From: Eledone cirrhosa
Lineage: Eukaryota
Assembly: GCA_964016885.1 (NCBI GenBank)
Contig: CAXHJY010000484.1
Coordinates: 1-22,722 of the forward strand
DNA: 22,722 nucleotides
Reading direction: 5' to 3'
Below the pieces are notes generated by a model. That model made no database searches, was not told the DNA's origin, and saw nothing but the letters and a program-made list of their open reading frames with translations. Position 1 is the first letter of the stretch; the number at the start of each line of letters is the position of its first letter. A program made the translations under genes and the position numbers. This document shows, in pieces, positions 877 through 22,310 of the stretch.

Positions 877-1311
877 GATTTTGAGTTTATGTTGGTTGTA
901 TACCAACACCTCAGTATGCAGGCTGGAGCACTCGACGAAGTGCGCAGGTTGGTTTGGTTACTCCGGAGTAGTGTAAAATAAAGTTAAATAAAAGTCAAAT
1001 GATTAAAATTTAGCTTCGTTTATTACTGCTATATATATTTCAGTGACAGCCATCTTTGGCTGTGACCTCTTCAGGCAGTTTGAATTAGTATGGTATAGAC
1101 AAGTACAGTGAATTAACAACCCAGCAAGGAACTGGGCATATCAGAGTATTGACAATATCATACACCTAAACAACATATGTACTTGTCTATACCATACTAA
1201 TTCAAACTGCCTGAAGAGGTCACAGCCAAAGATGGCTGTCACTGAAATATATATAGCAGTAATAAACGAAGCTAAATTTTAATCATTTGACTTTTATTTA
1301 ACTTTATTTTA
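877..1311. mobile_element. Penelope-like terminal fragment with 134-bp inverted repeat (974-1107 / 1178-1311)
   Basis: Perfect inverted arms with a 70-bp spacer, flanked by (TA)n. Each arm carries an HHR motif followed by AATAAA. Confidence 0.7.
1206..1260 (+). ncRNA. Type I hammerhead ribozyme (minimal; mirror copy on - strand at 1025-1079)
   Basis: ACTGC-CTGAAGA-[GGTCACAGCC AAAGAT GGCTGTCACT]-GAAA-TATATA-TA-GCAGT: helix I ACTGC/GCAGT, conserved core, palindromic helix III, AUA cleavage triplet. Confidence 0.8.
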
Positions 1312-1352
1312 TATATATATATACATATATATATATACATATATATATATAC

Positions 1353-1415
<63 letters not shown>

Positions 1416-1461
1416 CATATATATATACATATATATATATATACACATATATATATATATA
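1312..1461. repeat. (TA)n compound microsatellite
   Basis: Directly visible. Confidence 0.95.
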
Positions 1462-1576
1462 TAAGTTGAAAAAAATGAAAACCAAATTTCATTTCTCACT
1501 CTTAGTATGGCACTTACTTAAATGTAAGTATGTATGTATACGTACATACATATATGTATACAGACGTACAGTAGCA

Positions 1577-1622
<46 letters not shown>

Positions 1623-1856
1623 CATATACACAAACACGCAGGTACACATACATATATGCACGCATCAGTTGAAACTAGTACATCGTTCCTGTGTCAATGT
1701 TGAACAAAAAGGTGACGTGGTTGCCTTAACACCGTATGGCATAAATTCAGGCTGTTCGGTTTGTTGACAAACAAACGAACAAAGCGGCGTTATAATAAAC
1801 GTCCGCTAAACTGATGCGTGCATATATGTATGTGTACTTGCGTGTATGTGTCTATG

Positions 1857-1902
<46 letters not shown>

Positions 1903-2136
1903 TGCTACTGTACGTCTGTATACATATATGTATGTACGTATACATACATACTTACATTTAAGTAAGTGCCATACTAAGAGTGAGAAATGAAATTTCGTTT
2001 TCATATTTTTCAACTTATCGTTTTCGGTATGCCTGACCGATTTAACTCACTCAATTTGCAAATTAGGCTGCTCAGCCGTTAATTTTCATAAGGAAAGTAT
2101 ATACTTTCGAACGTTCAACTATCTGGCAGATGGGTA

Positions 2137-2181
2137 AACGGTGCTGATGATAGCTAACAAGCTTGAAACTAGTACATCGTT
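2137..2181 (+). ncRNA. Type I minimal hammerhead ribozyme
   Basis: AACGGTG-CTGATGA-T AGCT AACA AGCT T-GAAA-CTAG-TA-CATCGTT: 7-bp helix I (one G-U), helix II AGCT/AGCT, palindromic helix III ACTAGT, GUA triplet. Confidence 0.85.
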
Positions 2182-2616
2182 CCTGTGTCAGTGTTGAACA
2201 AAAAGGTGACGTGGTTGCCTTAACACCGTATGGCATAAATTCAGGCTGTTCGGTTTGTTGACAAACAAACGAACAAAGCGGCGTTATAATAAACGTCCGC
2301 TAAACTGATGCGTGCATATATGTATGTGGACCTGCGTGTATGTGTATATGTATGTGTATATATATATATATATATATATGCATGCTACTGTACGTCTGTA
2401 TACATATATGTATGTACGTATACATACATACTTACATTTAAGTAAGTGCCATACTAAGAGTGAGAAATGAAATTTCGTTTTCATTTTTTTCAACTTATCG
2501 TTTTCGGTATGCCTGACCGATTTTACTCACTCAATATGCAAATTAGGCTGCTCAGCCGTTAATTTTCATAAGGAAAGTATATACTTTCGAACGTTCAACT
2601 ATCTGGCAGATGGGTA

Positions 2617-2661
2617 AACGGTGCTGATGATAGCTAACAAGCTTGAAACTAGTACATCGTT
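2617..2661 (+). ncRNA. Type I minimal hammerhead ribozyme (identical second copy)
   Basis: Same sequence as 2137-2181, exactly 480 bp downstream. Confidence 0.85.
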
Positions 2662-2830
2662 CCTGTGTCAGTGTTGAACAAAAAGGTGACGTGGTTGCCT
2701 TAACACCGTATGGCATAAATTCAGGCTGTTCGGTTTGTTGACAAACAAACGAACAAAGCGGCGTTATAATAAACGTCCGCTAAACTGATGCGTGCATATA
2801 TGTATGTGTACCTGCGTGTATGTGTATATG

Positions 2831-2861
<31 letters not shown>

Positions 2862-2920
2862 GCATGCTACTGTACGTCTGTATACATATATGTATGTACG
2901 TATACATACATACTTACATT

Positions 2921-2921
<1 letters not shown>

Positions 2922-2966
<45 letters not shown>

Positions 2967-3185
2967 TAGATATACATATATATACATATATATATATACA
3001 TATATATATATACATATATATATATACATATATATATATACATATATATATATACATATATATATATACATATATATATATACATATATATATACATATA
3101 TATATATACATATATATATACATATATATATATACATATATATATACATATATATATATACATATATATATACATATATATATAC

Positions 3186-3220
<35 letters not shown>

Positions 3221-3221
3221 C

Positions 3222-3292
<71 letters not shown>

Positions 3293-3300
3293 CATATATA
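2922..3300. repeat. (TA)n/(TACATATATA) microsatellite
   Basis: Directly visible. Confidence 0.98.
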
Positions 3301-6300
3301 TCATCATCATCATCATCAACGTTTAACATCCGTGTTCCACGCTTGCATGGGTTTGGACGGGGGTAGTCCCACTTGAGGCAAGAGTGATTGTCTTGCTCGC
3401 ATAGGACTATCTGGCAGGTTTTCTACAGTTGGATGCCCTTCCTAACACCAACCACATTTACAGTGTGGGTCTGGGAGGTTTTTACCGTGTTGCCTACACG
3501 GCCACATTACAGCGTGGACTGTGTGTTTTTTTGTCGTGACACCTACACGATCTCATTTGTTTCGGCCCGGATGGCGCGGCACCAACATAACTTTACATAG
3601 AACGGGGTGGTGTGGGGGGGTGGGGGTGTATTTTGTTAGAGATGCCTACTGGCTGTAGTAGGTGCCTATTTAGGTAAAGCGGGTCTTCTCTGTTACTGAG
3701 TACCGCCAAAGGTCTCGGTCCAGTGACATTGTCTTGGTGAGGTGTAAGTGTGTGAGGTCGGAGTTTTAGTGGGTTTTACTATGTATTTAGGTAAGGCGGG
3801 TCTTCTCTGTTACTGAGTATCGCCAAAGGTCTCGGTCCAGTGACATTGTCTTGGTGAGGTGTAAGTGTGTGAGGTCGGAGTTTATCAGCTCATCCCATGT
3901 TTTTCTAGGTCTGCCTATTCCGTGGCTACCGTCTATCTTTATTGCCCTGCACTTTGTTATACAGCTATCGACTTTCATGCGCATCACGTGTCCATACCAA
4001 CGCAGCCTTCTCTCGAGTAAACAACATCTGATCCCTCTTATCTCTAATTTTTTCCTTAGTTCGTTTATGCTTTGCCGTTCACAGTATATTACTGTTACAC
4101 ATCCAGCGGAGCATGCAAGCTTCGTTCCTCTCTAGTCTGCGTATATCCTCTGCACACAATGCCCAGGTCTCACTGCCATGCAACATTGCTGTTCGTATGC
4201 AGGCATCGTACAACCTGCCTTTCATTTTTAGGGAGAACCCTTTAGCAGCTAATAGTGGTATAAGCTCTCTGAACTTTTTCCAACCAGTTCTGACTCTAGC
4301 TACTGTACTTTCAGAGCACCCTACCCCACTGCTGATTTTATCGCCCAGGTAACGGAAGCTGTCCACTATTTCTATAGAACCCTCTGCGCAATTGAAAGAG
4401 CTAGTATTTTGTGGGCACTTGCTGCTACTTATTGCACCAGAACACCGGCCACATGTAAAATCTATGTTCTTAGTTAGCTTACCTGTGATCCCACTACATC
4501 TTTTATGCACCCATACTTTGCATTTAGGACATCAAATGGAGTTTCTACCTACGCCTTTCCTACACACCGAGCACGACCATTTCCCAGAAGGGACCGCCGC
4601 CTTGTTTTCTTTCCTACAAACTAGAACTTTAGTCTTAGCCAGGTTAATTTTAAGTCCTTTTGACTCTAGGCCGTGCTTCCATGTTTGGAATTTCTTCTCT
4701 AGCTCGGCCATTGATTCCGCTATGAGTGTCAGGTCGTCTGCGTATAGGAGTTCCCATGGGCAGCCGGTCTTGAACTCCTCTGTTATAGCCTAAAGGGCAA
4801 TAATAAATAGTAGGGGGCTGAGAACAGAGCCCTGATGGACGCCAACTTTTACGCTAAACTCTTCACTATATTCGTTGTTAATTCTAACCTTGCTGACTGT
4901 TTCTTTATACATGGCTTGTATAGCCCTCACAAGCCATTCGTCAACGCCTAGTTTTCTAAGAGCCCACCAGATAATGGAGCGGGGGACTCTGTCGAAGGCT
5001 TTCTCCAAGTCGACAAAAGCTAAGTAGAGGGGTTTACCTTTAGCTAGGTACTTCTCCTGTAGTTGTCGTACAATGAAAAGAGCGTCTGTGGTACTTTTGC
5101 CTGACACAAACCCGAACTGCATTTCATCTAGGTCAATTCTCTCTCTGATTAGTTGCGCTATTACTTTTTCAGTGACCTTCATGACCTGGTCGATTAATTT
5201 AATGCCTCTATAGTTACTCCTATCTAGGGCGTCTCCTTTACCCTTATAACAGTTAACGATGATGCTGCTATGCTAGTCCTTCGGAACAACCCCATTCTGT
5301 ACGACTTGGTTAACTATACGGGTGACCATGGTGTGTCCCACCGTGCCAGATGCCTTCAGCATCTCAGCAACTATTTCCGAAGGCCCAGCCGCCTTACCCG
5401 CCTTCATATCCTTGATTGCCTTACTTATTATACTCCCCTCGACTAACACTGCTGGTCCCTCTGTTGGGTCGATATGGGGGAGACTGTCTTTCTCCCATTT
5501 ATTCTCCTCATTTAGTAGCTTTTCATAGTGACACTTCCAAGCTACCTTCTTATCAGCGTCGGTGATGGCAAGTATGCCATCATCGTTAAGTACACACTTC
5601 TCCCCGACAATATCACGGTTTTCCTTGACGCATTGCCTAGCAATCCTGAACACCTCACGTTTTTGGTCCTCGCGTTGTAGAACATGCTTGAACTTTCTTT
5701 CCTCAGCTTCCCTTCTTGCTAAGTACACTTGTCTCCTAGCTTCCCTCCTGGCCACTTGATAGTCTTCTCTACTTCCCCCATCCCGCCATACTTTCCAAGC
5801 CTGCTTTTTGGCCTTAATTGACCCCTCCACCTTACTGTTCCACCACCATGTTACTCTCCTCCTGCCTGCAGGCCTGCTCCAGCCACAGACTTCGTCTGTC
5901 GCCATCAGCAGGTTTGCTTTCAGAAATTCCCACTGTCCCTCTATATTGTCCGACTCTAAATGTTCTTCCTTACTGTCGAAAGCATCAAGTAATATGCTTT
6001 GAAATTTATTTCTGGCTGTGGGGTCCTTTAGCTTCCATATTTTTCTCCTGAGGATAGTCCTCTTCTGCTGTCGAGTACGTCTCGTCCTGACTATGAGGTC
6101 GCTAATTATCAGTCTATGTTGGGAGGTGCATTCTTCATGGGGGAGGGATTTAGTGTTTACAACAGACACTCTGTCACGTCTTCTGGTAAGGATATAATCT
6201 ACCTGGCTTGTGTGTTCCCCGGATCTATAGGTGATCAGGTGATTGTCACGTTTTTTGAAGTTAGTGTTACAGATAGTTAGGTTATTTGCATCACAGAATT

Positions 6301-6430
6301 CCAGGATTCTGGAGCCTTCCTCATTTCTAGTACCAAACCCATAGCCTCCATGGATTTCGTCGTAGCCGTCACAATGTTGTCCAACGTGACCATTTAGGTC
6401 GCCTGCAATAATTATATAGTCACTGTCGGA
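3301..6430 (-). mobile_element. RTE-clade LINE, 5'-truncated, with (GAT)n tail
   Basis: APE motifs ([24 protein letters not shown]), RT motifs (FVDLEKAFDRVPR, GVHQGSVLSPLLF, ELLYADDL, FRYLG), C-terminal RLRWYGHVMR...GRPRKTW, 3' UTR with AGGAAGGGCATCC, GATGATGAT tail at 3301-3318. Confidence 0.95.
3787..6430 (-). pseudogene. Disrupted RTE endonuclease/reverse transcriptase ORF
   Basis: In-frame stops at 5273-5275 (TAG), 4790-4792 (TAG) and 4532-4534 (TGA), plus a frameshift near 4080. N-terminus lost in the (TA)n tract. Confidence 0.9.
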
Positions 6431-6483
6431 TACATATATATATATACATATATATATATACATATATACATATATACATATAC

Positions 6484-6532
<49 letters not shown>

Positions 6533-6542
6533 CATATACATG

Positions 6543-6715
6543 TAAAGTTATATTTAAAATTGTTGGGTTACAACTAGTAAATATTTATAACTGATATAAA
6601 AGCACTCGACAAATATTTGGAGTATATTTACAATATTAACATGATATCCCCGAAATATATATAATGAAATAAATATGGTTTTATAAATATAGTTTTCCAT
6701 TTATTTAATATTGTA
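6543..6715. mobile_element. Penelope-like terminal fragment (family B) with inversion; only the 3' half of the HHR is retained
   Basis: Matches 7933-8028, 9785-10204 and 22061-22310. Contains CCCCGAAATATATATAATGAAATA and short inverted TACAATATTAA/TTAATATTGTA. Confidence 0.65.
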
Positions 6716-6820
6716 TATATACATATATATATATACATATATATATATACATATATATATATACATATATATATATATACATATATATACATATATATAT
6801 ATATACATATATATATACAC

Positions 6821-6855
<35 letters not shown>

Positions 6856-6856
<1 letters not shown>

Positions 6857-7143
6857 CATTATCATCACCGTTTTACGTCCATTCTTCCACGCTAGCATGG
6901 GTTAGACGGGTTGTCCTATTGTGGGCAGTGTCTGGTCGGCTGACCATGCCTTGCTCATACAGGAACTGATTTGGCTTGATTTCTACAGCAGGATGCCCTT
7001 CCTAACACCAACCCCATTTACAGTGAGTGCTAGGTGCTTTTTAGTGGCGCCTACACGTCCACTTTACAGTGTGGGCTGGGTGCTTTTTTGCCGTGGCACC
7101 TCCACAACCACCTTGCGGTGGGGGGTGTGGGGGCATATTGTCT
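6856..7143 (-). mobile_element. RTE 3' UTR fragment
   Basis: Near-identical to 7417-7705 and 14070-14358; GGATGCCCTTCCTAACACCAACC motif; (GAT)n tail. Confidence 0.85.
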
Positions 7144-7196
7144 ATATATACATACATATATATATATTGTCATATATATACATATATATATATATG

Positions 7197-7234
<38 letters not shown>

Positions 7235-7356
7235 CATATATATACATATATATACATATATATACATATATATAAATATACATAAATATACATATATATA
7301 CATATTACATAAATATACATATATATACATATATATACATATATATATATATATTA

Positions 7357-7402
7357 TTCTTTTACCTGTTTCAGCCATCCGGCTGAGGCCATGCTGGGGC
7401 AC
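7357..7402 (-). mobile_element. Short SINE 3' fragment
   Basis: TTCTTTTACCTGTTTCAGCCATCCGGCTGAGGCCATGCTGGGGCAC resembles, from memory, the end of an abundant Octopus SINE. Confidence 0.5.
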
Positions 7403-7416
7403 ATATATATATATAT

Positions 7417-7899
7417 CATCATCATCACCGTTTCACGTCCGTTCTTCTATGCTAGCATGGGTTAGACGGTTGTCCTGTTGTGGGCAGTGTCTGATCGGCT
7501 GACCATGCCTTGCTCATACAGGAACTGATTTGGCTTGATTTCTACAGCAGGATGCCCTTCCTAACACCAACCTCATTTACAGTGAGTGTTGGGTGCTTTT
7601 TCGTGGCGCCAACACGTCCACTTTACAGTGTGGGCTGGGTGCTGTTTTGCCGTGGCACCTCCACGACCACCTTGCGGTGGGAAGGTGTGGGTGCATATTG
7701 TCTATATGCTTCAGCTTGTACCCATGGGAGGTCGGGTACTCTGTATTAATGTGTGACGCCAGAGGTGCAACTGTGTAAGGTTGGCTTTTATCACCTCATC
7801 CCAGGTCTTCTGGGGTCTCCCCACTCCGCGGTTTCCATTGACTTCTAGTGCTCTGCACCTTTTTATGCAGCTGTCATCCTTCATATGCATCACATGTCC
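7417..7899 (-). mobile_element. RTE LINE 3' fragment (second subfamily; ORF C-terminus plus UTR)
   Basis: Translates GHVMHMKDDSCIKRCRALEVNGNRGVGRPQKTWDEVIK, homologous to 3787-3987; (GAT)n tail. Confidence 0.9.
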
Positions 7900-7931
<32 letters not shown>

Positions 7932-8028
7932 GCAGAGGTTACATTTAATTTGTTGGGATACAACAAGCTTAAAAATATTTTTATAACTGATATAAAGCAC
8001 TCAACAAATTATTGGAGTAAATATACAA

Positions 8029-8901
8029 TCTATATATATAAAACTGTGGTTGTCCGTCTGTCTATCGATTTTTGGCACACATCTCCTCTTAGAATCTCTC
8101 ACGGAATTGCACCGAAATTGCTATACTTGTACATTGAGCCCTAGCGAAGACATCGGAAAAAAAAAATTTCAAATTGACCCACCCTATGTGACGAAATCGA
8201 ATATAATGTATCGATTTTTGAGCGTAAGTTATCAGTTATTTCCCTTTGTTCTGTTTACATTGAGCGTCTTACGTAAAAAATTACGCTGGCTTTCTCAGCG
8301 TTTAAAACGACATTAACACAATACATGAAGCTTCCGTTTTGCTTCATTTCCATTTAAAAGCATTTTAAAACAATATTTTTACTTGAAAACAAGTCTATTT
8401 AAAGACTACGTAAAACAAGCAAATATTTCGTCGTTAGGCGTGCAGACAGACAGTCGTGCAGAGAGGTGATATAGGCGTGCAGACAGACAGTCGTGCAGAG
8501 AGGTGATATAGGCGTGCAGACAGACAGTCGTGCAGAGAGGTGATATAGGCGTGCAGACAGACAGTCGTGCAGAGAGGTGATATAGGCGTGCAGACATAAC
8601 TGATAATTTGGTTACGGTAATGTTTTTCTCTGCGTTGCAGTGTTTACATTTTCGATCTTTGTTAATAAATAACCAGTGCAGTTTCTATCCCCAGCATCCT
8701 CTTTTGTTATAACATTCGGGTTATCGTTATGTTTTCTTAACTTCATAAGGCATATTGTTGGTTGAGGGAATATTAATCAAAAACACCACATGCAAGTCTG
8801 CACAGTAGACACTACAGTTTTTAAGCCAAGAAAGAAACTTAACATTGTAACTTTAACACAGCTACTGAGCGACCCCGAGCAACGCCGGGCTTTACTGCTA
8901 G
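8029..8901 (+). mobile_element. Non-autonomous Helitron
   Basis: 5' TCTATATATATAAAACTG followed by a GTCTGTCT tract; 3' hairpin CCCGAGCAACGCCGGG then CTAG; inserted between A and T; no clear target-site duplication. Confidence 0.88.
8435..8596. repeat. 37-bp minisatellite (~4.3 copies) inside the Helitron
   Basis: AGGCGTGCAGACAGACAGTCGTGCAGAGAGGTGATAT at 8436, 8473, 8510, 8547 and partial at 8584. Confidence 0.95.
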
Positions 8902-9078
8902 TATATTAATAAATGGAAACTATATTTATAAAACCATATTTATTTTATTAAACATGTTTCAAGGGCCACCAAGGCAAATTATGGTGCGCTTTCATCAGTC
9001 TATCCAGGAAGCTCCAACCGTTAAGGTTGTCTTTTTTCCGGGTATGTCAATATTTATTTATAAAACTAACCTGTATTG

Positions 9079-9144
9079 TATTTTATCTGATGAAAGCACA
9101 CCATAATTTGCCTTGGTGGCCCTTGAAACATGTATAATAAAATA
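9079..9144 (+). ncRNA. Type I hammerhead ribozyme motif (family B)
   Basis: TATTTTAT-CTGATGA-helix II (CACCA/TGGTG)-GAAA-CATGTA-TA-ATAAAATA. Helix III is imperfect in this copy. Confidence 0.6.
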
Positions 9145-9200
9145 AATATGGTTTTATAAATATAGTTTCCAATTGTTAATATATTGTGTATATATATATA

Positions 9201-9474
9201 TCATTTCATTTCAGTTCACGTCCACTTTTCCCTGCTTGCAAGGGTGGGACAGGAACTGATTCTGGCTTGATTTCTACAGCTGGACACCCTTCCTAACACC
9301 AACCTCATTTACAGTGAGTGCTGGGTGCTTTTTTGCCGTGGCACCTCCACGACCACTTTGCAGTGGAATGATAGGAACCCCAGTCCCTATCATCTCATTT
9401 CTACAGCTGAGTAAACTGGAGCAATGTGAAATAAAGTGTCTTGCTCAAGGAAACAACACATCACCTGGTCCGAG
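9201..9474 (-). mobile_element. SINE with RTE-derived tail, 5'-truncated
   Basis: Colinear with the full copy at 16036-16376. Confidence 0.85.
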
Positions 9475-9499
<25 letters not shown>

Positions 9500-9507
<8 letters not shown>

Positions 9508-9709
9508 ATACTTGGGGAGGGTCATATTTGTGTAATATTGCCAGAATTAATAACAGAACACACTCACTGTTTGGTTGGTTTTTGCTTTTGAGTGTGTTCT
9601 GTTATTAATTCTGGCAATATTACACAAATATGACCCTCCCCAAGTATAACAATATTTGTTTCGACACACGATTTCATATCAAAAACCTTGGAAAACTAAT
9701 TCATCGCCG

Positions 9710-9711
<2 letters not shown>
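9500..9711. repeat. 67-bp perfect inverted repeat (9500-9566 / 9589-9655) plus unique tail, within (TA)n
   Basis: Arms directly visible; no HHR core found. Confidence 0.85.
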
Positions 9712-9766
<55 letters not shown>

Positions 9767-9784
9767 TATACATATATATATATG

Positions 9785-10204
9785 TAAAAGTTCTATTTAA
9801 ATTGTTGGGATACAACAAGCAAATATTTTTATAACTGATATAAAGCACTCAACAAATATTTGGAGTAAAAATACGATATTAACAAATGGAAACTATATTT
9901 ATAAAACCATATTTATTTCATTATACATATTTCAAGGACACCAAGTTCAATTATGGTGTGCTTTCATCAGATAAAATATAATATAGAGCAGTTTTATAAA
10001 TAAATATTGACATACTCTTAAAAAATGCAACCATTACTGTTGGAAGCTCCCGGTTGCATTTTTTAAGGGTATGTCAATATTTATTTATAAAACTGCTCTA
10101 TATTATATTTTATCTGATGAAAGCACACCATAATTTAACTTGGTGTCCTTGAAATATGTATAATGAAATAAATATGGTTTTCTAAATATAGTTTCCATTT
10201 GTTA
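9785..10204. mobile_element. Penelope-like family B fold-back insert, ~153-bp inverted arms (9880-10032 / 10051-10204)
   Basis: Near-perfect palindrome flanked by (TA)n; HHR on both strands. Confidence 0.75.
10106..10170 (+). ncRNA. Type I hammerhead ribozyme (mirror copy on - strand at 9914-9978)
   Basis: TATTTTAT-CTGATGA-AAGCACACCA..TGGTGTCCTT-GAAA-TATGTA-TA-ATGAAATA. Confidence 0.75.
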
Positions 10205-10422
10205 TATATATATATATATATATGAAAGAAGGAATTGGTAGTTTACTTGAAGCATTGTGTAGTGAGGTATAAAGGTTTGAAGTTAGAAAGCCAGAACAAT
10301 GCAGTTTTGGATAATTTATTAGTAAATTAAGGTAAAAGACTAATTGTCAGCGTCATTGTCTTTTGCATTTATATTCTATATCCAAACCTCCATTGTGCTG
10401 GCCTTCTAACTTCAAACGTTTA

Positions 10423-10848
10423 TCTATATATATAAAGCTGTGGTTGTCTGTCTGTCTATCGATTTTTGGCACACATCTCCTCTTAGATTCTCTGACAGAA
10501 TTGCACCGAAATTGCTATACTTGTACATTGAGCCCTAGCGAAGACATCGGAAAAAAAATATTTCAAATTGACCCACCCTATGTGACGAAATCGAATCTTC
10601 GATCTTTGTTAATAAATAACCAGTGCAGTTTCTATCCCCAGCATCCTCTTTTGTTATAACATTCGGGTTATCGTTATGTTTTCTTAACTTCATAAGGCAT
10701 ATTGTTGGTTGAGGGAATATTAATCAAAAACACCACATGCAAGTCTGCACAGTAGACACTACAGTTTTTAAGCCAAAAAAGAAACTTAACATTGTAACTT
10801 TAACACAGCTACTGAGCGACCCCGAGCAACGCCGGGCTTTACTGCTAG
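10423..10848 (+). mobile_element. Non-autonomous Helitron, internally deleted relative of 8029-8901
   Basis: Same TC start and hairpin+CTAG end; lacks ~8203-8649 of the longer copy. Confidence 0.88.
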
Positions 10849-11468
10849 TATATTTATAAAACTGAGGTTGTCTGTCTGTCTGTCTACTAAAACCTTCGGC
10901 ACACATCTCCTCTTAAACCATACGTTCAAATTTCGGTGAAATTGCTACACTTATAGATGAAGGTCTGGCGGACGAACATACGCACACACAAATACACACA
11001 CACACACACAAACACACACGTGCGCGCGCGTATGTATAAACCTTATGCATTTCTACAGTATTTTCACCAAACTTAAGACATAGGTTACTTATGTACTCCG
11101 GATGGTCATGGGCACTTTCATTTTTCCAGATATTGATTATAGGGCCTCCCGGCAGATAACCCCCTTTAACCACTTCCTTGGAGTCAACTGAAGAACTGCA
11201 GTGCAATGCAACAAAACGTCATAACTTCTGGAGTTCGCAACCGATTTTCACAAAACTTGACACATGGGCTATGTTTGTCCTACAGACGAATGTGAACTCT
11301 CAGAATTGGCGCATATTGAGTAGGGGACCCCTGGGGGCAGGAACCCCCTTTTGGAAAAAGCCGATGATTTTGTAAAAGTATAGTTTTCGAAATAGCACTG
11401 AAGTATTGACATAAATGGTATACACAACTGCTATTTAATACCCGAGCAACACCGGGTACCTCTGCTAG
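10849..11468 (+). mobile_element. Non-autonomous Helitron (different subfamily) abutting the previous copy
   Basis: Starts TATATTTATAAAACTGAGGTTGTCTGTCTG; ends CCCGAGCAACACCGGGTACCTCTGCTAG followed by T. Confidence 0.8.
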
Positions 11469-11736: not shown

Positions 11737-12260
11737 GATTCCACGAATATGCGGTGATATCCGCGAATATGCGGTGGTTTCCACGAATATGCGGTGATAT
11801 CCGCGAATATGCGGTGGTTTCCGCGAATATGCGGTGGTTTGCGCGAATATGCGGTGGTTTCCGCGAATATGCGGTGGTTTCCGCGAATATGCGGTGGTTT
11901 CCGCGAATATGCGGTGGATTCCGCGAATATGCGGTGGTATCCATGAATATGCGGTAGTATCCTGCGGTGGTTTCCACGAATATGCGGTGGTATCCACGAA
12001 TATGCGGTGGTTTCCTCGAATATGCGGTGGATTCCGCGAATATGCGGTAGTTTCCACAAATATGCGGTGATTTCCACGAATATGCGGTGGATTCCGCGAA
12101 TATGCGGTGGTTTCCACGAATATGCGGTGATTTCCACGAATATGCGGTGGATTCCGCGAATATGCGGTGGTTTCCACGAATATGCGGTAGATTCCACGAA
12201 TATGCGGTGGTTTCCACGAATATGCGGTGGATTCCGCGAATATGCGGTAGATTCCACGAA
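11737..12260. repeat. 20-bp CpG-rich minisatellite (~26 copies)
   Basis: Unit CCGCGAATATGCGGTGGTTT with variants; one phase break near 11960. Confidence 0.97.
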
Positions 12261-12504
12261 CTTACATACACGAGTTGATGGACCTTCTACGTTGCCAACG
12301 AGGAGTGTGTGGTCCAGTTGTTTAAACAACGGGATAGCCTGCTAGTGGCTGACCATTCCACAGACACGTATACCTTTGGTGGTTTCCGCGAACAATTATT
12401 AGTTAGGTTCTAAGGAAAATTCCGCAAATAACCTTGACTGCGAATGCCGTGGGTACACTCTTGATTTCTCCCCACCCATCCCTTCAATCTTTCTAATTTC
12501 TCAT

Positions 12505-12545
12505 TCTTTATTCTAATGAAGGACTAGCGTCCGAAACGTTAAGAC
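12505..12545 (+). ncRNA. Degenerate hammerhead motif (Penelope-type 3' remnant)
   Basis: CTAATGA-A-GGAC TAGC GTCC-GAAACGTTAAGA. Core has a G>A change relative to CTGATGA; helix I is weak. Confidence 0.5.
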
Positions 12546-12625
12546 CCTCTTCCTGCTATTTCAAGCGTTAAACTAATATATTCCTTCTATATAATGTACC
12601 AACTGTGTTATTTCTGTTTACCTTT

Positions 12626-12660
<35 letters not shown>

Positions 12661-12662
<2 letters not shown>

Positions 12663-12835
12663 GTTATTCCGGGTTGAGTCGGAGGTAACCACAGTAAGTA
12701 AGGTACTCAATACATTGCAGAGTATAAAAGTTATAATATAGATGAGATTCTACAGGACTAGAACTGTTTCATTCTTTAGAAATGATTCCCGATGATTTCT
12801 AAAGAATGAAACAGTTCTAGTCCTGTAGAATCTCA

Positions 12836-12884
<49 letters not shown>

Positions 12885-12977
12885 TGAGATTCTACAGGAC
12901 TAGAACTGTTTCATTCTTTAGAAATGATTCCCGATGATTTCTAAAGAATGAAACAGTTCTAGTCCTGTAGAATCTCA

Positions 12978-13020
<43 letters not shown>

Positions 13021-13109
13021 ATTCTACAGGACTAGAACTGTTTCATTCTTTAGAAATGATTCCTGATGATTTCTAAAGAATGAAACAGTTCTAGTCCTGT
13101 AGAATCTCA

Positions 13110-13140
<31 letters not shown>

Positions 13141-13246
13141 GATGAGATTCTACAGGACTAGAACTGTTTCATTCTTTAGAAATGATTCCTGATGATTTCT
13201 AAAGAATGAAACAGTTCTAGTCCTGTAGAATCTCATCTATATTATA
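12661..13246. mobile_element. Penelope-like terminus followed by four tandem ~105-bp hairpins separated by (TA)n, each overlapping an HHR
   Basis: Hairpins at ~12732-12846, 12881-12990, 13019-13120 and 13139-13246. Confidence 0.8.
13058..13106 (+). ncRNA. Type I hammerhead ribozyme (also 13184-13232; CCGATGA variants at 12784-12832 and 12926-12974)
   Basis: GATTC-CTGATGA-T TTC TAAA GAA T-GAAA-CAG TTCTAGTC CTG-TA-GAATC: helix I GATTC/GAATC, helix III ACAG/CTGT, GUA triplet. Confidence 0.8.
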
Positions 13247-14358: not shown

Positions 14359-14393
14359 ATACGGCTAGGTTTACCGACATTTTATCTTTTCAG

Positions 14394-14449: not shown

Positions 14450-14510
14450 GTGGGGGGGGGGGGGGGGTAACGTGCTCTGTTGTTTGGGTTTGAATAGTTT
14501 TTAGGATTCC

Positions 14511-15393: not shown

Positions 15394-15436
<43 letters not shown>

Positions 15437-15480
15437 TACACAGGATGAATAGCTTAACATTGTTGCTTTCTATATTGCAG

Positions 15481-15536
15481 GAAAACGAAAACATAAAAAA
15501 TGTTCAACTCAGTCTGATGGAGAAGAATCATTAAAG
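15481..15536 (+). CDS. Exon of unidentified gene (KRKHKKCSTQSDGEESLK)
   Basis: TTGCAG acceptor, AAG|GTGAGT donor; phase 1 to 0. Confidence 0.75.
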
Positions 15537-15860
15537 GTGAGTGTTGTTGTTGTTGTTATTGGTGGGTGGTGGTGGTGGTAGTAGTGGTGCGTGATGCTAT
15601 TGTTGGTGGGTGGTGGTGGTGATGGTAGGGGTTGGTGTTGGGAATTAGTGTTGGTGGTGGAGAGAGGTGATGGTAGGGATTGGTGTTGGTGATGGGGAGT
15701 TGTGATGGTAGGGATTGGTGTTGGTGGGGAGTGGTGATGGTATGGATTGGTGTTGGTGGTGGGGAGTGGTGTTGGTGGTGGGGAGTGGTGTTGGTGGTGG
15801 GGATGGTAGGGATTGGTGTTGGTGGTGGTGGTGGTAGTTATTGGTGTTGGTGGCTGATGG
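15537..15860 (+). repeat. (GGT)n-rich degenerate minisatellite
   Basis: Repeated GTGATGGTAGGGATTGGTGTTGGTGG-like units filling the intron. Confidence 0.9.
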
Positions 15861-15915
15861 TAATACTATCACATTTAATAACCTCAATCTTCTTCCTTGG
15901 TCTTCTGTTATGCAG

Positions 15916-16003
15916 AGTTTCTCGGAATCCAGTGAAATGTGTTCCCCCAAACGGGAATGTAACACATCCAGTGATGAAGAAACCTTTACATGTAATTTTA
16001 ATG
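15916..16003 (+). CDS. Exon (SFSESSEMCSPKRECNTSSDEETFTCNFN)
   Basis: ATGCAG acceptor, G|GTAAGT donor; 88 nt, phase 0 to 1, open frame. Confidence 0.78.
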
Positions 16004-16035
16004 GTAAGTGGTACAATCTATATATAGTGTATATA

Positions 16036-16375
16036 TCATCATCATCATTTCATTTTACGTCCGCTTTTCCCTGCTTGCAAGGGTGGGACTGGAACTGATT
16101 CTGGCTTGATTTCTACAGCTGGATGCCCTTCCTAACACCAACCTCATTTACAGTGAGTGCTGGGTGCTTTTTTGCCATGGCACCTCCACGACCACTTTAC
16201 AGTGGAATGATAGGGACCCCAGTCCCTATCATCTCATTTCTACAGCTGAGTAAACTGGAGCAATGTGAAATAAAGTGTCTTGCTCAAGGAAACAACACAT
16301 CACCTGGTGTGAGAATTGAACTCACAACCTTTCGATTGCAAGGCCAATGCTCTAACCACTAAGTCATGTGCCTTC

Positions 16376-16376
<1 letters not shown>
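16036..16376 (-). mobile_element. Full-length tRNA-derived SINE with RTE-derived 3' tail
   Basis: Pol III A box TGACTTAGTGG (16356-16366), B box GTTCAATTC (16313-16321), central CCTTGAGCAAGACACTT domain, tail shared with the RTE UTR, (GAAAT)/(GAT)n end. Confidence 0.9.
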
Positions 16377-16437
<61 letters not shown>

Positions 16438-16553
16438 GTTTGACTACCTCATACTACTCCTCTCTCTTTACGCCTTGGTGAATGTATGTGTATGTAAAAA
16501 GAAAGAAGGCAATGGTGCAAGTGTGAATGTATACACTTGCACCATTGTATGTA

Positions 16554-18180
16554 TACATTACTCTATATATACTATTATATTTACATGGTAAAGTCTTTAT
16601 CTCACATAACACTTACATTACTCTGTATATACTATTATATTTTCATGGTAAAGTCTTTACCTCACATAACACTTACATTACTCTATATATACTATTATAT
16701 TTACATGGTAAAGTCTTTATCTCACATAACACTTACATTACTCTATATATACTATTATATTTACATGGTAAAGTCTTTATCTCACATAACACTTACATTA
16801 CTCTATATATACTATTATATTTACATGGTAAAGTCTTTATCTCACATAACACTTACATTACTCTATATATACTATTATATTTACATGGTAAAGTCTTTAT
16901 CTCACATAACACTTACATTACTCTATATATACTATTATATTTACATGGTAAAGTCTTTACCTCACATAACACTTACATTACTCTATATATACTATTATAT
17001 TTACATGGTAAAGTCTTTATCTCACATAACACTTACATTACTCTATATATACTATTATATTTACATGGTAAAGTCTTTATCTCACATAACACTTACATTA
17101 CTCTATATATACTATTATATTTTCATGGTAAAGTCTTTACCTCACATAACACTTACATTACTCTATATATACTATTATATTTACATGGTAAAGTCTTTAT
17201 CTCACATAACACTTACATTACTCTATATATACTATTATATTTTCATGGTAAAGTCTTTACCTCACATAACACTTACATTACTCTATATATACTATTATAT
17301 TTTCATGGTAAAGTCTTTATCTCACATAACACTTACATTACTCTATATATACTATTATATTTTCATGGTAAAGTCTTTATCTCACATAACACTTACATTA
17401 CTCTATATATACTATTATATTTTCATGGTAAAGTCTTTACCTCACATAACACTTACATTACTCTATATATACTATTATATTTTCATGGTAAAGTCTTTAT
17501 CTCACATAACACTTACATTACTCTATATATACTATTATATTTACATGGTAAAGTCTTTACCTCACATAACACTTACATTACTCTATATTTACTATTATAT
17601 TTTCATGGTAAAGTCTTTACCTCACATAACATTTACATTACTCTATATATACTATTGTATTTTCATGGTAAAGTCTTTACCTTACATAACACTTACATTA
17701 CTCTATATTTACTATTATATTTTCATGGTAAAGTCTTTATCTCACATAACACTTACATTCCTCTATATTTACTATTATATTTTCATGGTAAAGTCTTTAC
17801 CTCACATAACATTTACATTACTCTATATATACTATTATATTTTCATGGTAAAGTCTTTATCTCACATAACACTTACATTACTCTATATTTACTATTATAT
17901 TTTCATGGTAAAGTCTTTACCTCACATAACACTTACATTACTCTATATATACTATTATATTTTCATGGTAAAGTCTTTATCTCACATAACACTTACATTA
18001 CTCTATATTTACTATTATATTTTCATGGTAAAGTCTTTATCTCACATAACACTTACATTACTCTATATATACTATTATATTTACATGGTAAAGTCTTTAT
18101 CTCACATAACACTTACATTACTCTATATATACTATTATATTTTCATGGTAAAGTCTTTATCTATCATAATTATCTCACAT
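16554..18180 (+). repeat. 60-bp tandem satellite (~27 copies) derived from the piggyBac-type MITE
   Basis: Unit TACATTACTCTATATATACTATTATATTTTCATGGTAAAGTCTTTATCTCACATAACACT matches the MITE subterminal region at 20117-20173. Confidence 0.97.
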
Positions 18181-18311
18181 AATATTGAATCTATGAGATT
18201 TTGAAAGTATTTATTTTGAGAACAATACGTTAACATCAGTTTGAGCAACCGGTTACAGCCAGTTTCAACAGAAAGAGGTAGAGAATTCTGGCCGGTTTGA
18301 ACATTAAAGGG
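18181..18311 (+). mobile_element. Right part of the MITE continuing from the satellite
   Basis: Ends ...AACATTAAAGGG followed by TTAA; colinear with 18604-18811. Confidence 0.85.
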
Positions 18312-18526
18312 TTAATGATGCAATGTTGTAGTTTTGATTACATAATGTTGCGGTTGCATTCTTACTGTAATTCTAAATATAGTGCAACTGGCATCATTTT
18401 TTACTGCAATTTTAAATTTAAGAGATTCAACTTAAGTTTGTTATAAAATGTCAGTTAATTAGCAAGTAATTAACTACTAATTAACGATCAATTGTTGCTA
18501 AATACATTTTTTCTTTGTTATTTCAG

Positions 18527-18562
18527 ATCAACAGAGTGGTGGTGTGTGTTACAGAATTTATG
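18527..18562 (+). CDS. 36-nt micro-exon (DQQSGGVCYRIY)
   Basis: Polypyrimidine tract + TTTCAG acceptor, G|GTAAGG donor; phase 1 to 1. Confidence 0.72.
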
Positions 18563-18603
18563 GTAAGGAAGTTTTACATATAACATTTGTTGAACTGCCT
18601 TAA

Positions 18604-18811
18604 CCCTTTAGCATTTACATTACTCTATATTTACTATTGTATTTTTGAGGTAAAAGCTTTACCTTATATAATATTGAATCTAGGAGATTTTGATATTATT
18701 TATGATGAGAACAATACCTTAACATGAGTATGAGCAGCCGGTTACAACCGGTTTGAACAGAAAAGTGTGTGAGAATTCTGGCCGGATACGGCCAGTTTAA
18801 ATGCTAAAGGG
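18604..18811 (+). mobile_element. piggyBac-type MITE
   Basis: TTAA duplication both sides; TIR CCCTTTAGCATTTA / TAAATGCTAAAGGG. Confidence 0.9.
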
Positions 18812-19180
18812 TTAAAGCAGGGAACCCCCTAGAATTTTCGAGACCATCAATCAATCCTTTATGGGGTTCTGCCAAATGTTTCTGAACCAAAAATGGTTCC
18901 GTGTTTGAAAAGTCTGATTAACCCTGGACTATAGAATAGAAGCAATTATATATGAATTAGAAACTTGTGTAATAATACTGTTGTGGTATTTGTTCAGTTT
19001 TGCTAATGTGGTTTCATATGGTACAGGACATAAAATGTTAATGTGATGCAGTCATAGTGCTGTTTTCTACTCTTCAAGAATGTCTTGCTAATGTGACTTT
19101 GTGTGTTAGAGAACATAAAGAACTAAATAGGTTTGTAGTTGAGTGGCTTACTAAAGATTATTTTTTTATATTTATTATAG

Positions 19181-19207
19181 AACCTCAGATACCGAAAACA
19201 GAAGAAG
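19181..19207 (+). CDS. 27-nt micro-exon (EPQIPKTEE)
   Basis: T-rich tract + TATAG acceptor, AAG|GTAAGT donor; phase 1 to 1. Confidence 0.75.
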
Positions 19208-19382
19208 GTAAGTGTTGTTACAAACTACTAATAAACACTGTCTCTAATGAAACACAGAAATATTTAATTATTAACATTACTCTTAATGTGTGTACACATT
19301 TACACTTGCACACAGGTGTGTGTAATGAGTTAAGTTGAACTTAGTACAGAAGACAGGTCTCCGACACACGACAAAGTGTGTA

Positions 19383-19660
19383 TCATCATTTCATTTTACA
19401 TCCACTTTTCCCTGCTTGCAAGAGTGGGACGGGAACTGATTCTGGCTTGATTTCTACAGCTGGATGCCCTTCCTAACACCAACCTCATTTACAGTGAGTG
19501 CTGGGTGCTTTTTTGCAGTGGAATGATATGGACCTCAGTCCCTATCATCTCATTTCTACAGCTGAGTAAACTGGAGCAATGTGAAATAAAGTGCCTTGCT
19601 CAAGGAAACAACACATCACTCGGTCTGAGAATTGAACTCACAACCTTCCGATTGCAAGGC
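19383..19660 (-). mobile_element. tRNA-derived SINE with RTE tail (5'-truncated)
   Basis: Colinear with 16036-16376; B box retained. Confidence 0.85.
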
Positions 19661-19993
19661 TAGTATATATATATATATACTTATATATACATATTTAATA
19701 TGAAAGAGTTGGAACCCCGACGGCTGAGGTCTTGAGGTTTCAAAGACAGCGATGGGCAAATTATCTCTGTTGACCACTGGACGCTGGTTTTTGTCCTCTG
19801 AGGCACTTTTGCCCATCACTGTCAAAGACAGAGATGGACAAAATTAATGGCTGTTCTAGCGATGAGTATTCTCATTTTTACATTCAAATAGTCTCGCTTC
19901 ATCTAGATCAGAGATAACATTGGTTTTCTTTTTTCATTTAATTATATTATTGGTTTTCTTTTTTCATTTAATTATATTATTCTTATTTTCCAG

Positions 19994-20037
19994 GTGATGC
20001 ACAACAAATATTCAACACTATGATGGGATTTCAAAGC
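19994..20037 (+). CDS. Exon (GDAQQIFNTMMGFQS)
   Basis: TTTTCCAG acceptor, GTAAGT donor; 44 nt, phase 1 to 0. Confidence 0.78.
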
Positions 20038-20104
20038 GTAAGTTTCTGTTTCTTTAATTCTTCCTCTTCTGAATACATTTTCTTTTATCCTCACAGTTTA
20101 TTAA

Positions 20105-20312
20105 CCCTTTAGCATTTACATTACTCTATATATACTATTATATTTTCATGGTAAAGGCTTTATCTCACATAATATCGAATCTGTGAGATTTTAATATTTA
20201 CTTTGTGAACAAAACTTAACATCAATATGAGTTGCCGGTTACAGCTGGTTTGAAGAGAAAGAATTCGATTAGAGAATTCTGGCCGGCAATGGCCGATTTA
20301 AATGCTAAAGGG
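20105..20312 (+). mobile_element. piggyBac-type MITE
   Basis: TTAA-CCCTTTAGCATTTA ... TAAATGCTAAAGGG-TTAA. Confidence 0.9.
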
Positions 20313-20380
20313 TTAATCAACTTTCCCTCCCCAAAAATTGTTGACCTTGTGCCTATAGTAGAAACAATTATTATTATTAA

Positions 20381-20577
20381 CCCTTTAGTGTTCAAACCGG
20401 CCAGAATTCTCTACCTCTTTCTGTTGAAACTGGCTGTAACTGGCCACTCATACTGATGTTAAGGTATTGTTTTCACAATAAATACTTTCAAAATCTCATA
20501 GATTCTATATTATGTGAGATAAAGACTTTACCATGAAAATACAATAGTATATATAAAATAATGTGATTGCTAAAGAG
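20381..20577 (-). mobile_element. piggyBac-type MITE, inverted orientation
   Basis: TTAA-CCCTTTAG ... GCTAAAGAG-TTAA; reverse complement of the other copies. Confidence 0.85.
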
Positions 20578-20580
20578 TTA

Positions 20581-20755
20581 AAGGTGGTGGATTAGCAGAA
20601 TCAGTAGAACATCTGACATGCTTCACGGCATAAAGTTATAGCCCTTTATGTTGATTTCAAATCCCACCGAGGTTAACTTGGCATCCTTATGGAGTTGATT
20701 TAATTGACTTTCCCTCCCTAAAAATTGTTGGAGTTGTGCCTAAATAGGAAACTGT
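20581..20755 (+). mobile_element. Degenerate SINE of a second family
   Basis: A/B-box-like head (TAGCAGAATC..., TTCAAATCCCACCGAGGTTAAC); related to 21438-21552 (-) and 20317-20370. Confidence 0.55.
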
Positions 20756-20842
20756 TGTTCAATTTGGCTTCAATTTACTTTTGAAATGAAGAGATATGAT
20801 GAGAAACGCTTCTGTTGTTAACATCTGTTTATTTTTTGTTTT

Positions 20843-21147
20843 TTCATTTCATTTCATTTCATTTCATTTCATTTCATTTGAGTCCATGCTCAGGCCAAGT
20901 CGAAGACTCCACCCTCAGATTCTGGTGTGGTTGCCAGGTTGGATTCTCTGTTTAATTTTGATATGTGTAGGAGCGAGTTTGAGTCAGTTTGTGCTCGTTG
21001 TGTATATCCTGGGAGATGGGGTTCATCTCTAATGGTGCTTAAGTATCTATCCAGCTGCAATTTGAATGATTCCACACTGCATCCTGATAGATTTCTGACA
21101 TGTACCGGAATGGAGTTGAATAGTTGTGCCCCTCGAACCAACAGACT
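20843..21147 (-). mobile_element. CR1-clade LINE 3' fragment with (GAAAT)n tail
   Basis: SVRGAQLFNSIP...FKLQLDRYLSTIRDEPHLPGY...SNSLL is homologous to the ORF at 1-435; TTCAT repeats at 20843-20879. Confidence 0.85.
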
Positions 21148-21192
21148 TGTTATATATATTTATATATATTTTTTTTTTTTTTTTTTTTTCAG

Positions 21193-21255
21193 GAGGAATT
21201 GGAAATATCAGCAAACCAGTATATGGACTTGGAAATCTTTCCACTTCTTCCATAA
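21193..21255 (+). CDS. Probable terminal coding exon (EELEISANQYMDLEIFPLLP*)
   Basis: Long T tract + CAG acceptor; phase 0; TAA at 21253-21255. Confidence 0.68.
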   Translation, partial: EELEISANQYMDLEIFPLLP

Positions 21256-21437
21256 ACACTTTACAGCTCTGTCAAAATCTCTTTGTATATAATCTGGCTT
21301 TATTCTTGTATATATTTATCCATGCTAGCGTGGAGAATGGAAGTTAAACCATGACGATGATGGTGATGATGTATATATATATTATATATATATACACATA
21401 TATAACATATAATATATATGTACATAATAAATAATTG

Positions 21438-21552
21438 TTTCTACTTTTTGGCACAAGGCCAGCAATTATCCCAGTACATTACTGGTACTTTTATTTTATC
21501 GACCCCTGTAAGGATGAAAGGCAAAGTTGACCTCGGCGAGATTTGAACTCAG
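21438..21552 (-). mobile_element. SINE fragment (second family)
   Basis: TGGTACTTTTATTTTATCGACCCC..GGATGAAAGGCAAAGTTGACCTCGGCGAGATTTGAACTC includes a B box. Confidence 0.75.
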
Positions 21553-22032
21553 TACATGTACATAATATATAGAGTATCATCATCATCATCATCATCATCA
21601 TCACCGTTTTACGTCTGTTCTTCCATGCTAGCATGGGTTAGATATATGTATATATATTTATATATATATCTTTATATACATTTATATATATATAAATGAA
21701 AGGTATAGAAAATATTGTAGCAAAAAGCCAATATATATTTATATATATATATATATTTTTATATGTAAGTATATTTATATATATATATATAATATATATA
21801 TCTATATAATGTTTATAATATTATATACATGTATATAGTGTATATATTTGTATATATGCGTAAAAAATATAAAAACTGTGTAAACTATGAAACGCACACA
21901 ACAATTACAATTATTGTGAAAAACATTAAAAAAAGCGTTAATAAAGACGGATCATTTGATGATACCTGTCCTACCCTGAACCCTGACCCCCTCATATTCT
22001 CCTTATGATGTTGAATTAGGAGAGTTAATAAG

Positions 22033-22060
<28 letters not shown>

Positions 22061-22063
<3 letters not shown>

Positions 22064-22310
22064 TTCGGGGATATCATATTAACAATATGCTATGCCTTCA
22101 TCAGACAAAATACAATATAAACAGTTTTATAGATAGCATATTGTTAATATGATATCCCCGAAATATATATAATGAAATAAATATGGTTTTATAAATATAG
22201 TTTCCATTTATTTAATATTGCAAATATACTCCAAATATTTGTCGAGTGCTTTTATATCAGTTATAAATATTTACTAGTTGTAACCCAACAATTTTAAATA
22301 TAACTTTACA
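22061..22310. mobile_element. Penelope-like family B fold-back insert with HHR core on the - strand (22063-22112)
   Basis: Minus strand reads TATTTTGT-CTGATGA-AGGCATAGCATATT..AATATGATATCCCC-GAAA-TATATA; the right part is the reverse complement of 6543-6640. Confidence 0.7.

What the first reader, a model, noticed from the sequence alone, without database searches (positions are those of the whole stretch)
877..22310. About five distinct HHR-carrying families, nearly all embedded in (TA)n and mostly as fold-back inserts
Seen: a dozen or more HHR motifs in 22 kb (1025-, 1206+, 2137+, 2617+, 9079+, 9914-, 10106+, 12513+, four at 12784-13232+, 22063-) in sequence-unrelated contexts. The recurring layout is a fixed terminus, an HHR, then a variable-length inverted copy ending in TA. 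Known: Penelope-like elements leave inverted truncated pLTRs. Inference: a radiation of (TA)n-targeting PLE-dependent elements, which may also contribute to the TA expansion.
Basis: partly seen in the sequence, partly recalled or inferred. Interest (0 to 1): 0.75.

Follow-up and report, generated by a model that had tools for sequence, protein, structure and literature searches.

The report
Penelope retroelement ends in TA repeats
The hammerhead motifs are real: they mark cut-short ends of four Penelope-type jumping-gene families plus one tandem repeat likely copied by the same enzymes, mostly lying beside TA repeats as already published for this group.

Summary
Ten strict type I hammerheads lie in the window, with none in 600 shuffles. 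Three more listed motifs are damaged copies, and one damaged copy was missed. They form five families with 3,500-10,700 exact motif matches each in the genome. A, C and E are 5'-truncated ends of Hydra-clade Penelope-like elements (PLEs) with RT and GIY-YIG partners. D is the end of a Neptune/Nematis-type PLE and is almost never fold-back (1/30). B is a 480-nt tandem retrozyme with PLE-type ends. HHR, (TA)n preference, inverted arm and one-sided tail are all published for Hydra/PLEs, including an octopus Hydra family. TA targeting is not special to HHR carriers: an HHR-less LINE scores 26/30 against 75/90. Their share of the TA tracts looks small. New here are numbers: 33 of 38 fold-backs pair one long end with one short end and none pairs two long ends; 7 of 8 end sites read on into TA; the genome may hold about 300,000 HHRs. 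Earlier scan notes already reported two-armed retrozymes with Penelope ends on other DNA of this genome.

The parts
877..1309 (.). Family A fold-back insert: long (tailed) arm on - from 877, short arm on + ending 1309; end of a Hydra-clade PLE
   Evidence: partner L031 with two direct pLTRs, RT and GIY-YIG; 6,162 exact 28-mer matches
1025..1079 (-). type I HHR, family A
1206..1260 (+). type I HHR, family A
1461..2920 (.). Family B: 2.6 tandem 480-nt retrozyme units on + (short end 2920) with an inverted long-end arm 1461-1670; each unit holds an internal (TA)n tract
   Evidence: 10,672 exact 32-mer matches
2137..2181 (+). type I HHR, family B (palindromic stem III)
2617..2661 (+). type I HHR, family B
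6545..6711 (.). C2 fold-back truncated so that only the 3' half of the HHR remains
   Evidence: sequence
7935..9183 (.). C1-subfamily fold-back interrupted by a Helitron-like element (8030-8901); damaged HHRs at 8998- and 9087+
9504..9709 (.). Sixth PLE-type fold-back (family F), short end left and long end right, truncated before its HHR-core-like motif
   Evidence: a GIY-YIG ORF lies upstream in L163 and L166
9785..10202 (.). Family C1 fold-back with HHRs 9914-9978(-) and 10106-10170(+); end of a Hydra-clade PLE
   Evidence: partners L161, L162; 4,025 exact matches
12453..12628 (+). Family D: 5'-truncated end of a Neptune/Nematis-type PLE, HHR core mutated (12513), no inverted arm
   Evidence: 17 of 20 endonuclease loci carry this terminus
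12662..13242 (.). Family E: one tailed fold-back, then three tandem copies separated by (TA)n; HHR cores 12789, 12931, 13063, 13189 (+); end of a Hydra-clade PLE
   Evidence: partners L168, L169, L075/L358; 9,206 exact matches
22064..22306 (.). C2 fold-back; - arm HHR (core 22104) ends in the TA tract at stem III; + arm has the long end
   Evidence: C2 flanks a GIY-YIG ORF in L037; 10,398 matches

Best explanation
These inserts are 5'-truncated 3' ends of protein-coding Penelope-like retroelements (A, C and E with Hydra-clade motifs, D with Neptune/Nematis-type motifs) plus one non-coding 480-nt tandem retrozyme (B) that is likely copied by the same enzymes. Shown: the HHR lies in the terminal repeat, copies end at two fixed sites 57-99 nt apart, and fold-backs join one long and one short arm between TA tracts. 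Inferred: the GIY-YIG endonuclease cuts both strands of an existing (TA)n tract. Reverse transcription then starts at two internal RNA sites, one per DNA end, probably helped by about 2 nt of UA pairing. The two short cDNAs are joined at their 5' ends, giving the fold-back. The HHR is a passenger of the pLTR, not the priming point. The short-stem-III forms would cleave as dimers, and fold-back copies would mask their HHR in double-stranded RNA.
For: RT+EN partners bounded by the same HHR termini: A L031/L032/L034; C L161/L162; E L168/L169, and L075 where the tail runs straight into the ORF; D 17/20 EN loci, with RT+EN in one frame in L343. Hydra motifs: RW[K/R], DKT, CxCx5C, CxxC...CxH, no CxxC inside GIY-YIG. 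End positions are bimodal for A, C and E. Of 38 fold-backs, 33 were long+short, 3 short+partial tail, 2 short+short and 0 long+long (p=4e-8 on 33/35). B shows the same two ends and inverted arm. (TA)>=4 lies within 10 nt of the 3' end in A 27/30, C 25/30, E 23/30, against 6.8% background. Read-through copies have no TA tract at the end sites, but 7 of 8 sites continue with TA or AT. Two internal RT start sites and cutting of both strands were shown in vitro for an Anolis PLE (PMC11167929, parts 1-2 read).
Against: No labelled reference PLEs were in the tree, so clade names rest on motifs; the tree is a quick one using 43 of 120 homologues. Units A and C are about 4.1 kb, longer than the '<3 kb' given for Hydra. 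The A RT copy in L034 has EKT, though L031 has DKT; DKT was not seen for C. No enzyme partner is identified for B. Loci are the first 30 exact matches along one contig, some of them the two arms of one insert, so the TA fractions are not fully independent. L154 and L155 are a local duplicate within the 38. The Anolis study found RT initiation without homology to the target, against the UA-pairing step. E's main short end overlaps TA by only 1 nt. No cleavage or RNA data.
Confidence: 0.88

Rival explanations
1. The fold-backs are non-autonomous inverted-repeat DNA elements (MITE-like) inserted at TA and carrying HHR-like sequence by descent.
For: Terminal inverted arms, TA flanks, thousands of copies.
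Against: The arms are unequal at two fixed sites, the centres vary in length, single-arm and full-length RT+EN copies share the same ends, and the tail reads into the ORF.
Confidence: 0.04
2. The inverted arm arises by self-priming or template switching on one cDNA (or on an antisense RNA), not by two priming events at a double-strand break.
For: Proposed for rotifer Penelopes (PMC3846280, passages). Arms within an insert are closer than arms between inserts (A 2.4% vs 4.9%, C 2.7% vs 3.7%; no difference in E).
Against: It does not readily explain why the outer ends fall on the two RT start sites, one each, nor why both lie in TA. A single template is also compatible with two primings.
Confidence: 0.2
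3. The elements themselves make the (TA)n tracts, by reiterative, telomerase-like synthesis at priming, and so drive TA expansion.
For: Both ends are TA-flanked; end sites read on into TA; B carries an internal TA tract of 12-80 nt, mean 38.
Against: HHR-less LINE ends are as TA-adjacent (26/30) and have longer flanks (median 97 vs 30-60 nt, p=0.002). Only 70 of 514 TA blocks lie within 300 nt of an HHR. B's internal tracts come to about 0.4 Mb of about 140 Mb pure TA (from; a lower bound). The empty-site test gave nothing either way.
Confidence: 0.1

Closest known systems
Hydra-clade PLEs, including Hydra-1_Obim and Penelope-13_HM (Craig et al. 2021, PMC8557442; section 11, passages and supplement part 2 read)
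   Same: C-terminal GIY-YIG, RWK/DKT, CxCX5C linker, no CCHH, canonical type I HHR near the 3' end, (TA)n insertion, inverted 5'-truncated copy; an octopus family is already listed.
   Different: These families have other HHR sequences (by eye against the supplement table), units of about 4.1 kb (A, C), tails of 68-99 nt rather than 30-40, and thousands of copies each.
Neptune/Nematis-type PLEs (Craig 2021 Fig. 1 legend and text; 'Neptune' for D is partly recalled)
   Same: D has a CX4CxxC linker, CxxC plus histidines in GIY-YIG, RT then EN, an HHR in the 3' end and a microsatellite bias.
   Different: D has a single fixed end, almost no inverted arms, and mixed (CA)n/(TA)n flanks.
Metazoan non-LTR retrozymes (Cervera and de la Pena 2020, PMC7229834, passages; Li et al. 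2026 preprint 10.64898/2026.07.22.740005, part 1 of 5 and term search)
   Same: B is a non-coding tandem repeat with one type I HHR per unit and a short palindromic stem III.
   Different: The unit is 480 nt with an internal (TA)n. It shows the PLE insertion footprint (two fixed ends, inverted arm); the word 'tail' does not occur in the 2026 preprint's main text.
Poseidon_Ac in vitro (Frangieh et al. 2024, PMC11167929; parts 1-2 of 4 read)
   Same: Two internal RT start sites bounding the tail, cutting and extension of both strands, HHR dispensable for insertion.
   Different: No target homology and no strand bias of start sites were seen there; here the ends pair long with short and mostly overlap TA.

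Membership tests
type I hammerhead ribozyme | core CUGANGA + GAAA + UH with stems I-III | tested here: met
   10 motifs, 0 in 600 shuffles; core invariant across 9 related variants
type I hammerhead ribozyme | self-cleavage | not testable with these tools
   needs an in vitro assay; single-strand folds recover the hammerhead stems only in part
Penelope-like element (A, C, D, E) | RT plus C-terminal GIY-YIG joined to the same terminus | tested here: met
   Pfam GIY-YIG weak (E 0.002 for A, below cut-off) and no Pfam RT match for A, C or E
Penelope-like element (A, C) | direct pLTRs with HHR, inverted 5'-truncated copy, one-sided tail | tested here: met
   L031, L161
Hydra clade (A, C, E) | CxCX5C linker, CCHH absent, CxxC and CxH near the C-terminus | tested here: met
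   all three families and C2
Hydra clade (A, C, E) | RWK and DKT motifs | tested here: inconclusive
   A RWK and DKT (L031), E RWR and DKT; C N-terminal frame is broken in the copies seen
Hydra clade (A, C, E) | (TA)n insertion | tested here: met
   75/90 vs 6.8% background
Hydra clade (A, C, E) | generally shorter than 3 kb | tested here: not met
   A and C pLTR-to-pLTR about 4.1 kb; a described tendency, not a strict criterion
Hydra clade (A, C, E) | placement with labelled Hydra RTs in a tree | tested here: inconclusive
   they group with unnamed homologues (91/120 DKT, 116/120 CxCx4-6C); no labelled references
Neptune/Nematis PLE (D) | CX2-5CxxC linker and CCHH in a C-terminal EN | tested here: met
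   Neptune versus Nematis not resolved
non-LTR retrozyme (B) | non-coding tandem units, each with a type I HHR | tested here: met
   no linked RT/EN ORF seen in 30 loci plus 3 long stretches
non-LTR retrozyme (B) | circular monomer RNA | not testable with these tools
   needs RNA work

The most novel reading that the evidence does not exclude
Every two-armed insert records one coordinated event: a PLE enzyme pair cuts both strands of (TA)n and primes once at each of two fixed RNA sites through a 2-nt UA match. Retrozyme B is inserted by the same route, which is direct genomic evidence that PLE enzymes mobilise animal retrozymes. The genome may hold about 300,000 hammerheads, more than the 126,247 reported for axolotl.
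Probability: 0.45. Interest if true: 0.55.

Novelty: new member of a known kind. Interest (0 to 1): 0.3.

Why it matters
The class is published, so the window is mostly ordinary for this genome. Its value is as a large natural data set for an unsettled question: how PLEs make inverted arms and one-sided tails, and whether they mobilise retrozymes. The strict long+short rule and the TA overlap at start sites give specific predictions for an existing in vitro assay. The extrapolated 136,000-545,000 HHRs would be a very high count for an animal genome.

Tried and rejected
(1) The Rfam scan listed no hammerhead in the 150 rows shown; a custom descriptor was used instead. (2) The first descriptor missed B and E because it required a paired first position in stem II, fixed. 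(3) DNA similarity search of the genome returned nothing because common words are skipped; exact patterns were used. (4) Idea that insertion is primed from the HHR-cleaved 3' end, suggested by 22064: rejected. 0 of 117 distinct contexts in fetched loci and 0 of the 100 listed of 10,398 C2 matches end there. (5) Empty-site test through flanks of 38 inserts: no usable hit (one search timed out). (6) TA controls from the random stretches had too few or ill-defined ends and were replaced by matched pattern searches. under-parsed LINE tails (10/30), corrected (26/30). (7) No strand-polarised A-to-G excess between arms of the window's fold-backs. (8) Sequencing runs: no RNA holder listed. (9) Literature: no paper on cephalopod HHR-PLE fold-backs beyond Craig 2021 in the searches. 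Cervera and de la Pena 2014 was not seen, only cited by others. The O. vulgaris repeat paper has no 'hammerhead' in its main text; the giant squid paper counts 235 hammerhead hits.
Full report
Setting. The window is the whole of contig C511 of a 3.0-Gb animal genome. Pure (TA)>=6 makes up 6.9% of the window and 4.7% of 396 kb taken from 40 spread-out stretches. Earlier scan notes call the genome cephalopod or octopus-type; I did not test this.

Observation. A structure-aware scan finds 10 type I hammerheads and none in 600 block shuffles. Three more listed motifs (9087+, 12513+, 22104-) and one unlisted (8998-) are damaged copies. They fall into five families: A (1025/1206), B (2137/2617), C (9079, 9914, 10106, with variant C2 at 22063 and 6545), D (12513) and E (12784-13232). 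Exact motif matches in the genome are A 6,162, B 10,672, C1 4,025, C2 10,398, D 3,525 and E 9,206. The 40 stretches hold 41 strict HHRs in 14 sequence groups, 104 per Mb (bootstrap 45-182), which extrapolates to about 310,000 (136,000-545,000). Two of the 40 stretches are as dense as the window, so the window is rich but not exceptional.

What the families are. A: L031 has an inverted truncated copy, a pLTR with HHR, RT and GIY-YIG frames, and a second pLTR 4.1 kb on. C: L161 and L162 show the same layout; C2 flanks a GIY-YIG frame in L037. E: L168 and L169 carry RT+EN between E termini, and in L075 the E tail runs directly into the ORF. All three have CxCx5C, CxxC and CxH and lack CxxC inside GIY-YIG; A and E have RW[K/R] and DKT. 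These are the Hydra-clade marks of Craig et al. 2021. That paper's supplement lists Hydra-1_Obim from an octopus with (TA)n preference and an HHR, and a Hydra family with an inverted copy. D: 17 of 20 best endonuclease loci carry the D terminus, and L343 has RT and EN in one frame with CX4CxxC and CCHH-type motifs, so it is Neptune/Nematis-type. A, C and E proteins are 37-50% identical; D is about 22% identical to E. In a quick tree (51 rows, 43 of 120 homologues, no labelled references), A, C, E, one more in-genome element and two unnamed proteins form a branch with support 99. This fits an old diversification of Hydra-type elements plus an unrelated clade, not one recent burst. B is a 480-nt non-coding tandem unit with one HHR and an internal (TA)n of 12-80 nt; no linked RT/EN frame was seen.

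Anatomy. In 30 genomic copies per family, A, C and E end mostly at two fixed sites; D ends at one. An inverted arm lies within 1.5 kb upstream in A 17/30, C 18/30, E 19/30 and D 1/30. Among 38 fold-backs, 33 join a long and a short end, 3 a short end and a partial tail, 2 two short ends, and 0 two long ends. One of the two short+short cases has a tail with an internal deletion; the other has its long end just outside the 520-nt search range. B shows the same two ends and inverted arm. A one-sided tail is published (PMC8557442, PMC3846280 passages), and it matches the two internal RT start sites shown for Poseidon_Ac. In read-through copies, 7 of 8 end sites of A, B, C and E continue with TA or AT but not with a TA tract. 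With a rough chance rate of 0.25, p is 0.0004; the rate is my estimate. Arms within an insert are closer than arms between inserts in A and C but not E, which fits one template or later gene conversion. Short stem III segments are mostly self-complementary (33 of 41 motifs), as expected for dimer cleavage (PMC7229834 passages).

TA targeting and controls. (TA)>=4 begins within 10 nt of the 3' end in A 27/30, C 25/30, E 23/30 and D 14/30, against 6.8% of random positions. Matched controls: the LINE ending at window 510 scores 26/30 (p=0.78 against A+C+E), RTE-tailed repeats 19/30 (p=0.04), a tRNA-SINE 17/30 (p=0.005) and a Helitron-like element 8/30. Only 70 of 514 TA blocks lie within 300 nt of an HHR, and A/C/E flanks (medians 30-60 nt) are shorter than LINE flanks (97 nt). 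B spreads TA tracts inside its unit, at least 0.4 Mb of about 140 Mb. A large role in TA expansion is not supported; the empty-site test was uninformative.

Mechanism. Shown: element identity, two fixed ends, long+short pairing, TA flanks. Inferred: a double-strand cut in (TA)n, two target-primed cDNAs starting at the two RNA sites with about 2 nt of UA pairing, early termination, and joining at the 5' ends. The HHR travels with the pLTR. Inserts that lost it exist in the window (6545-6711, 9504-9709), and ends at the cleavage site are not a class. The E array is likely one insert repeated locally at the DNA level, since only the first unit has the tail. The rival self-priming model is not excluded.

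Novelty and verdict. These are new families of known kinds. The combination of HHR, (TA)n, inverted arm and tail is in print for Hydra-clade PLEs. Earlier notes of this scan already describe two-armed retrozymes with Penelope ends on other DNA of this genome; I reached the B result before that look-up, and such notes are not independent support. Supplements of the 2026 preprint and of the other papers were not seen and could bear on the retrozyme claim. Interest 0.3.

Noticed in passing
window 9504-9709; L163:8452-9825, L166:3759-4897: Sixth PLE-type fold-back family whose longer copies carry a C-terminal GIY-YIG and, about 170 nt upstream of the window's part, a hammerhead core with good stem II but no clear canonical stems I and III.
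   Followed up: partly
window 10225-10424; L328: Another TA-flanked fold-back with diverged arms and no HHR found; family not identified.
   Followed up: partly
window 3302-6429 (-): 5'-truncated RTE-like LINE (APE and RT Pfam hits) with an (ATG)n tail, in TA tracts; related tails on short repeats at 6857, 7417 and 14069.
   Followed up: partly
window 1-510: 3' end of a LINE with a short repeated tail that is TA-adjacent in 26 of 30 genomic copies (3,663 matches): a second, HHR-less (TA)n-targeting family.
   Followed up: partly
window 9206-9473, 16041-16376, 19382-19660, 22506-22722 (-): tRNA-headed SINE with an RTE-like 3' tail; 24,905 matches of its 3' motif.
   Followed up: partly
window 8030-8901, 10422-10860, 10849-11468: Helitron-like non-autonomous elements (3' hairpin plus CTAG; label from recall), one inserted into a family C fold-back.
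   Followed up: partly
window 16554-18169, 18600-18815, 20101-20581: 27 copies of a 60-bp tandem unit related to the subterminal part of an inverted-repeat element with TTAA-CCC ends (piggyBac-like by recall).
   Followed up: no
window 15481-15537, 15917-16003, 18528-18563, 19181-19207, 19994-20038: Short AG...GT-bounded segments that look like small exons of a host gene on +, so the right half may be intronic.
   Followed up: no
L180, L193: Other tandem HHR arrays (11 and 4 units) in the random stretches, probably further retrozyme families.
   Followed up: no
L359: A diverged B-like retrozyme family with the same unit layout and internal TA tract.
   Followed up: no
window 11739-12260: 20-bp minisatellite, 26 copies.
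   Followed up: no
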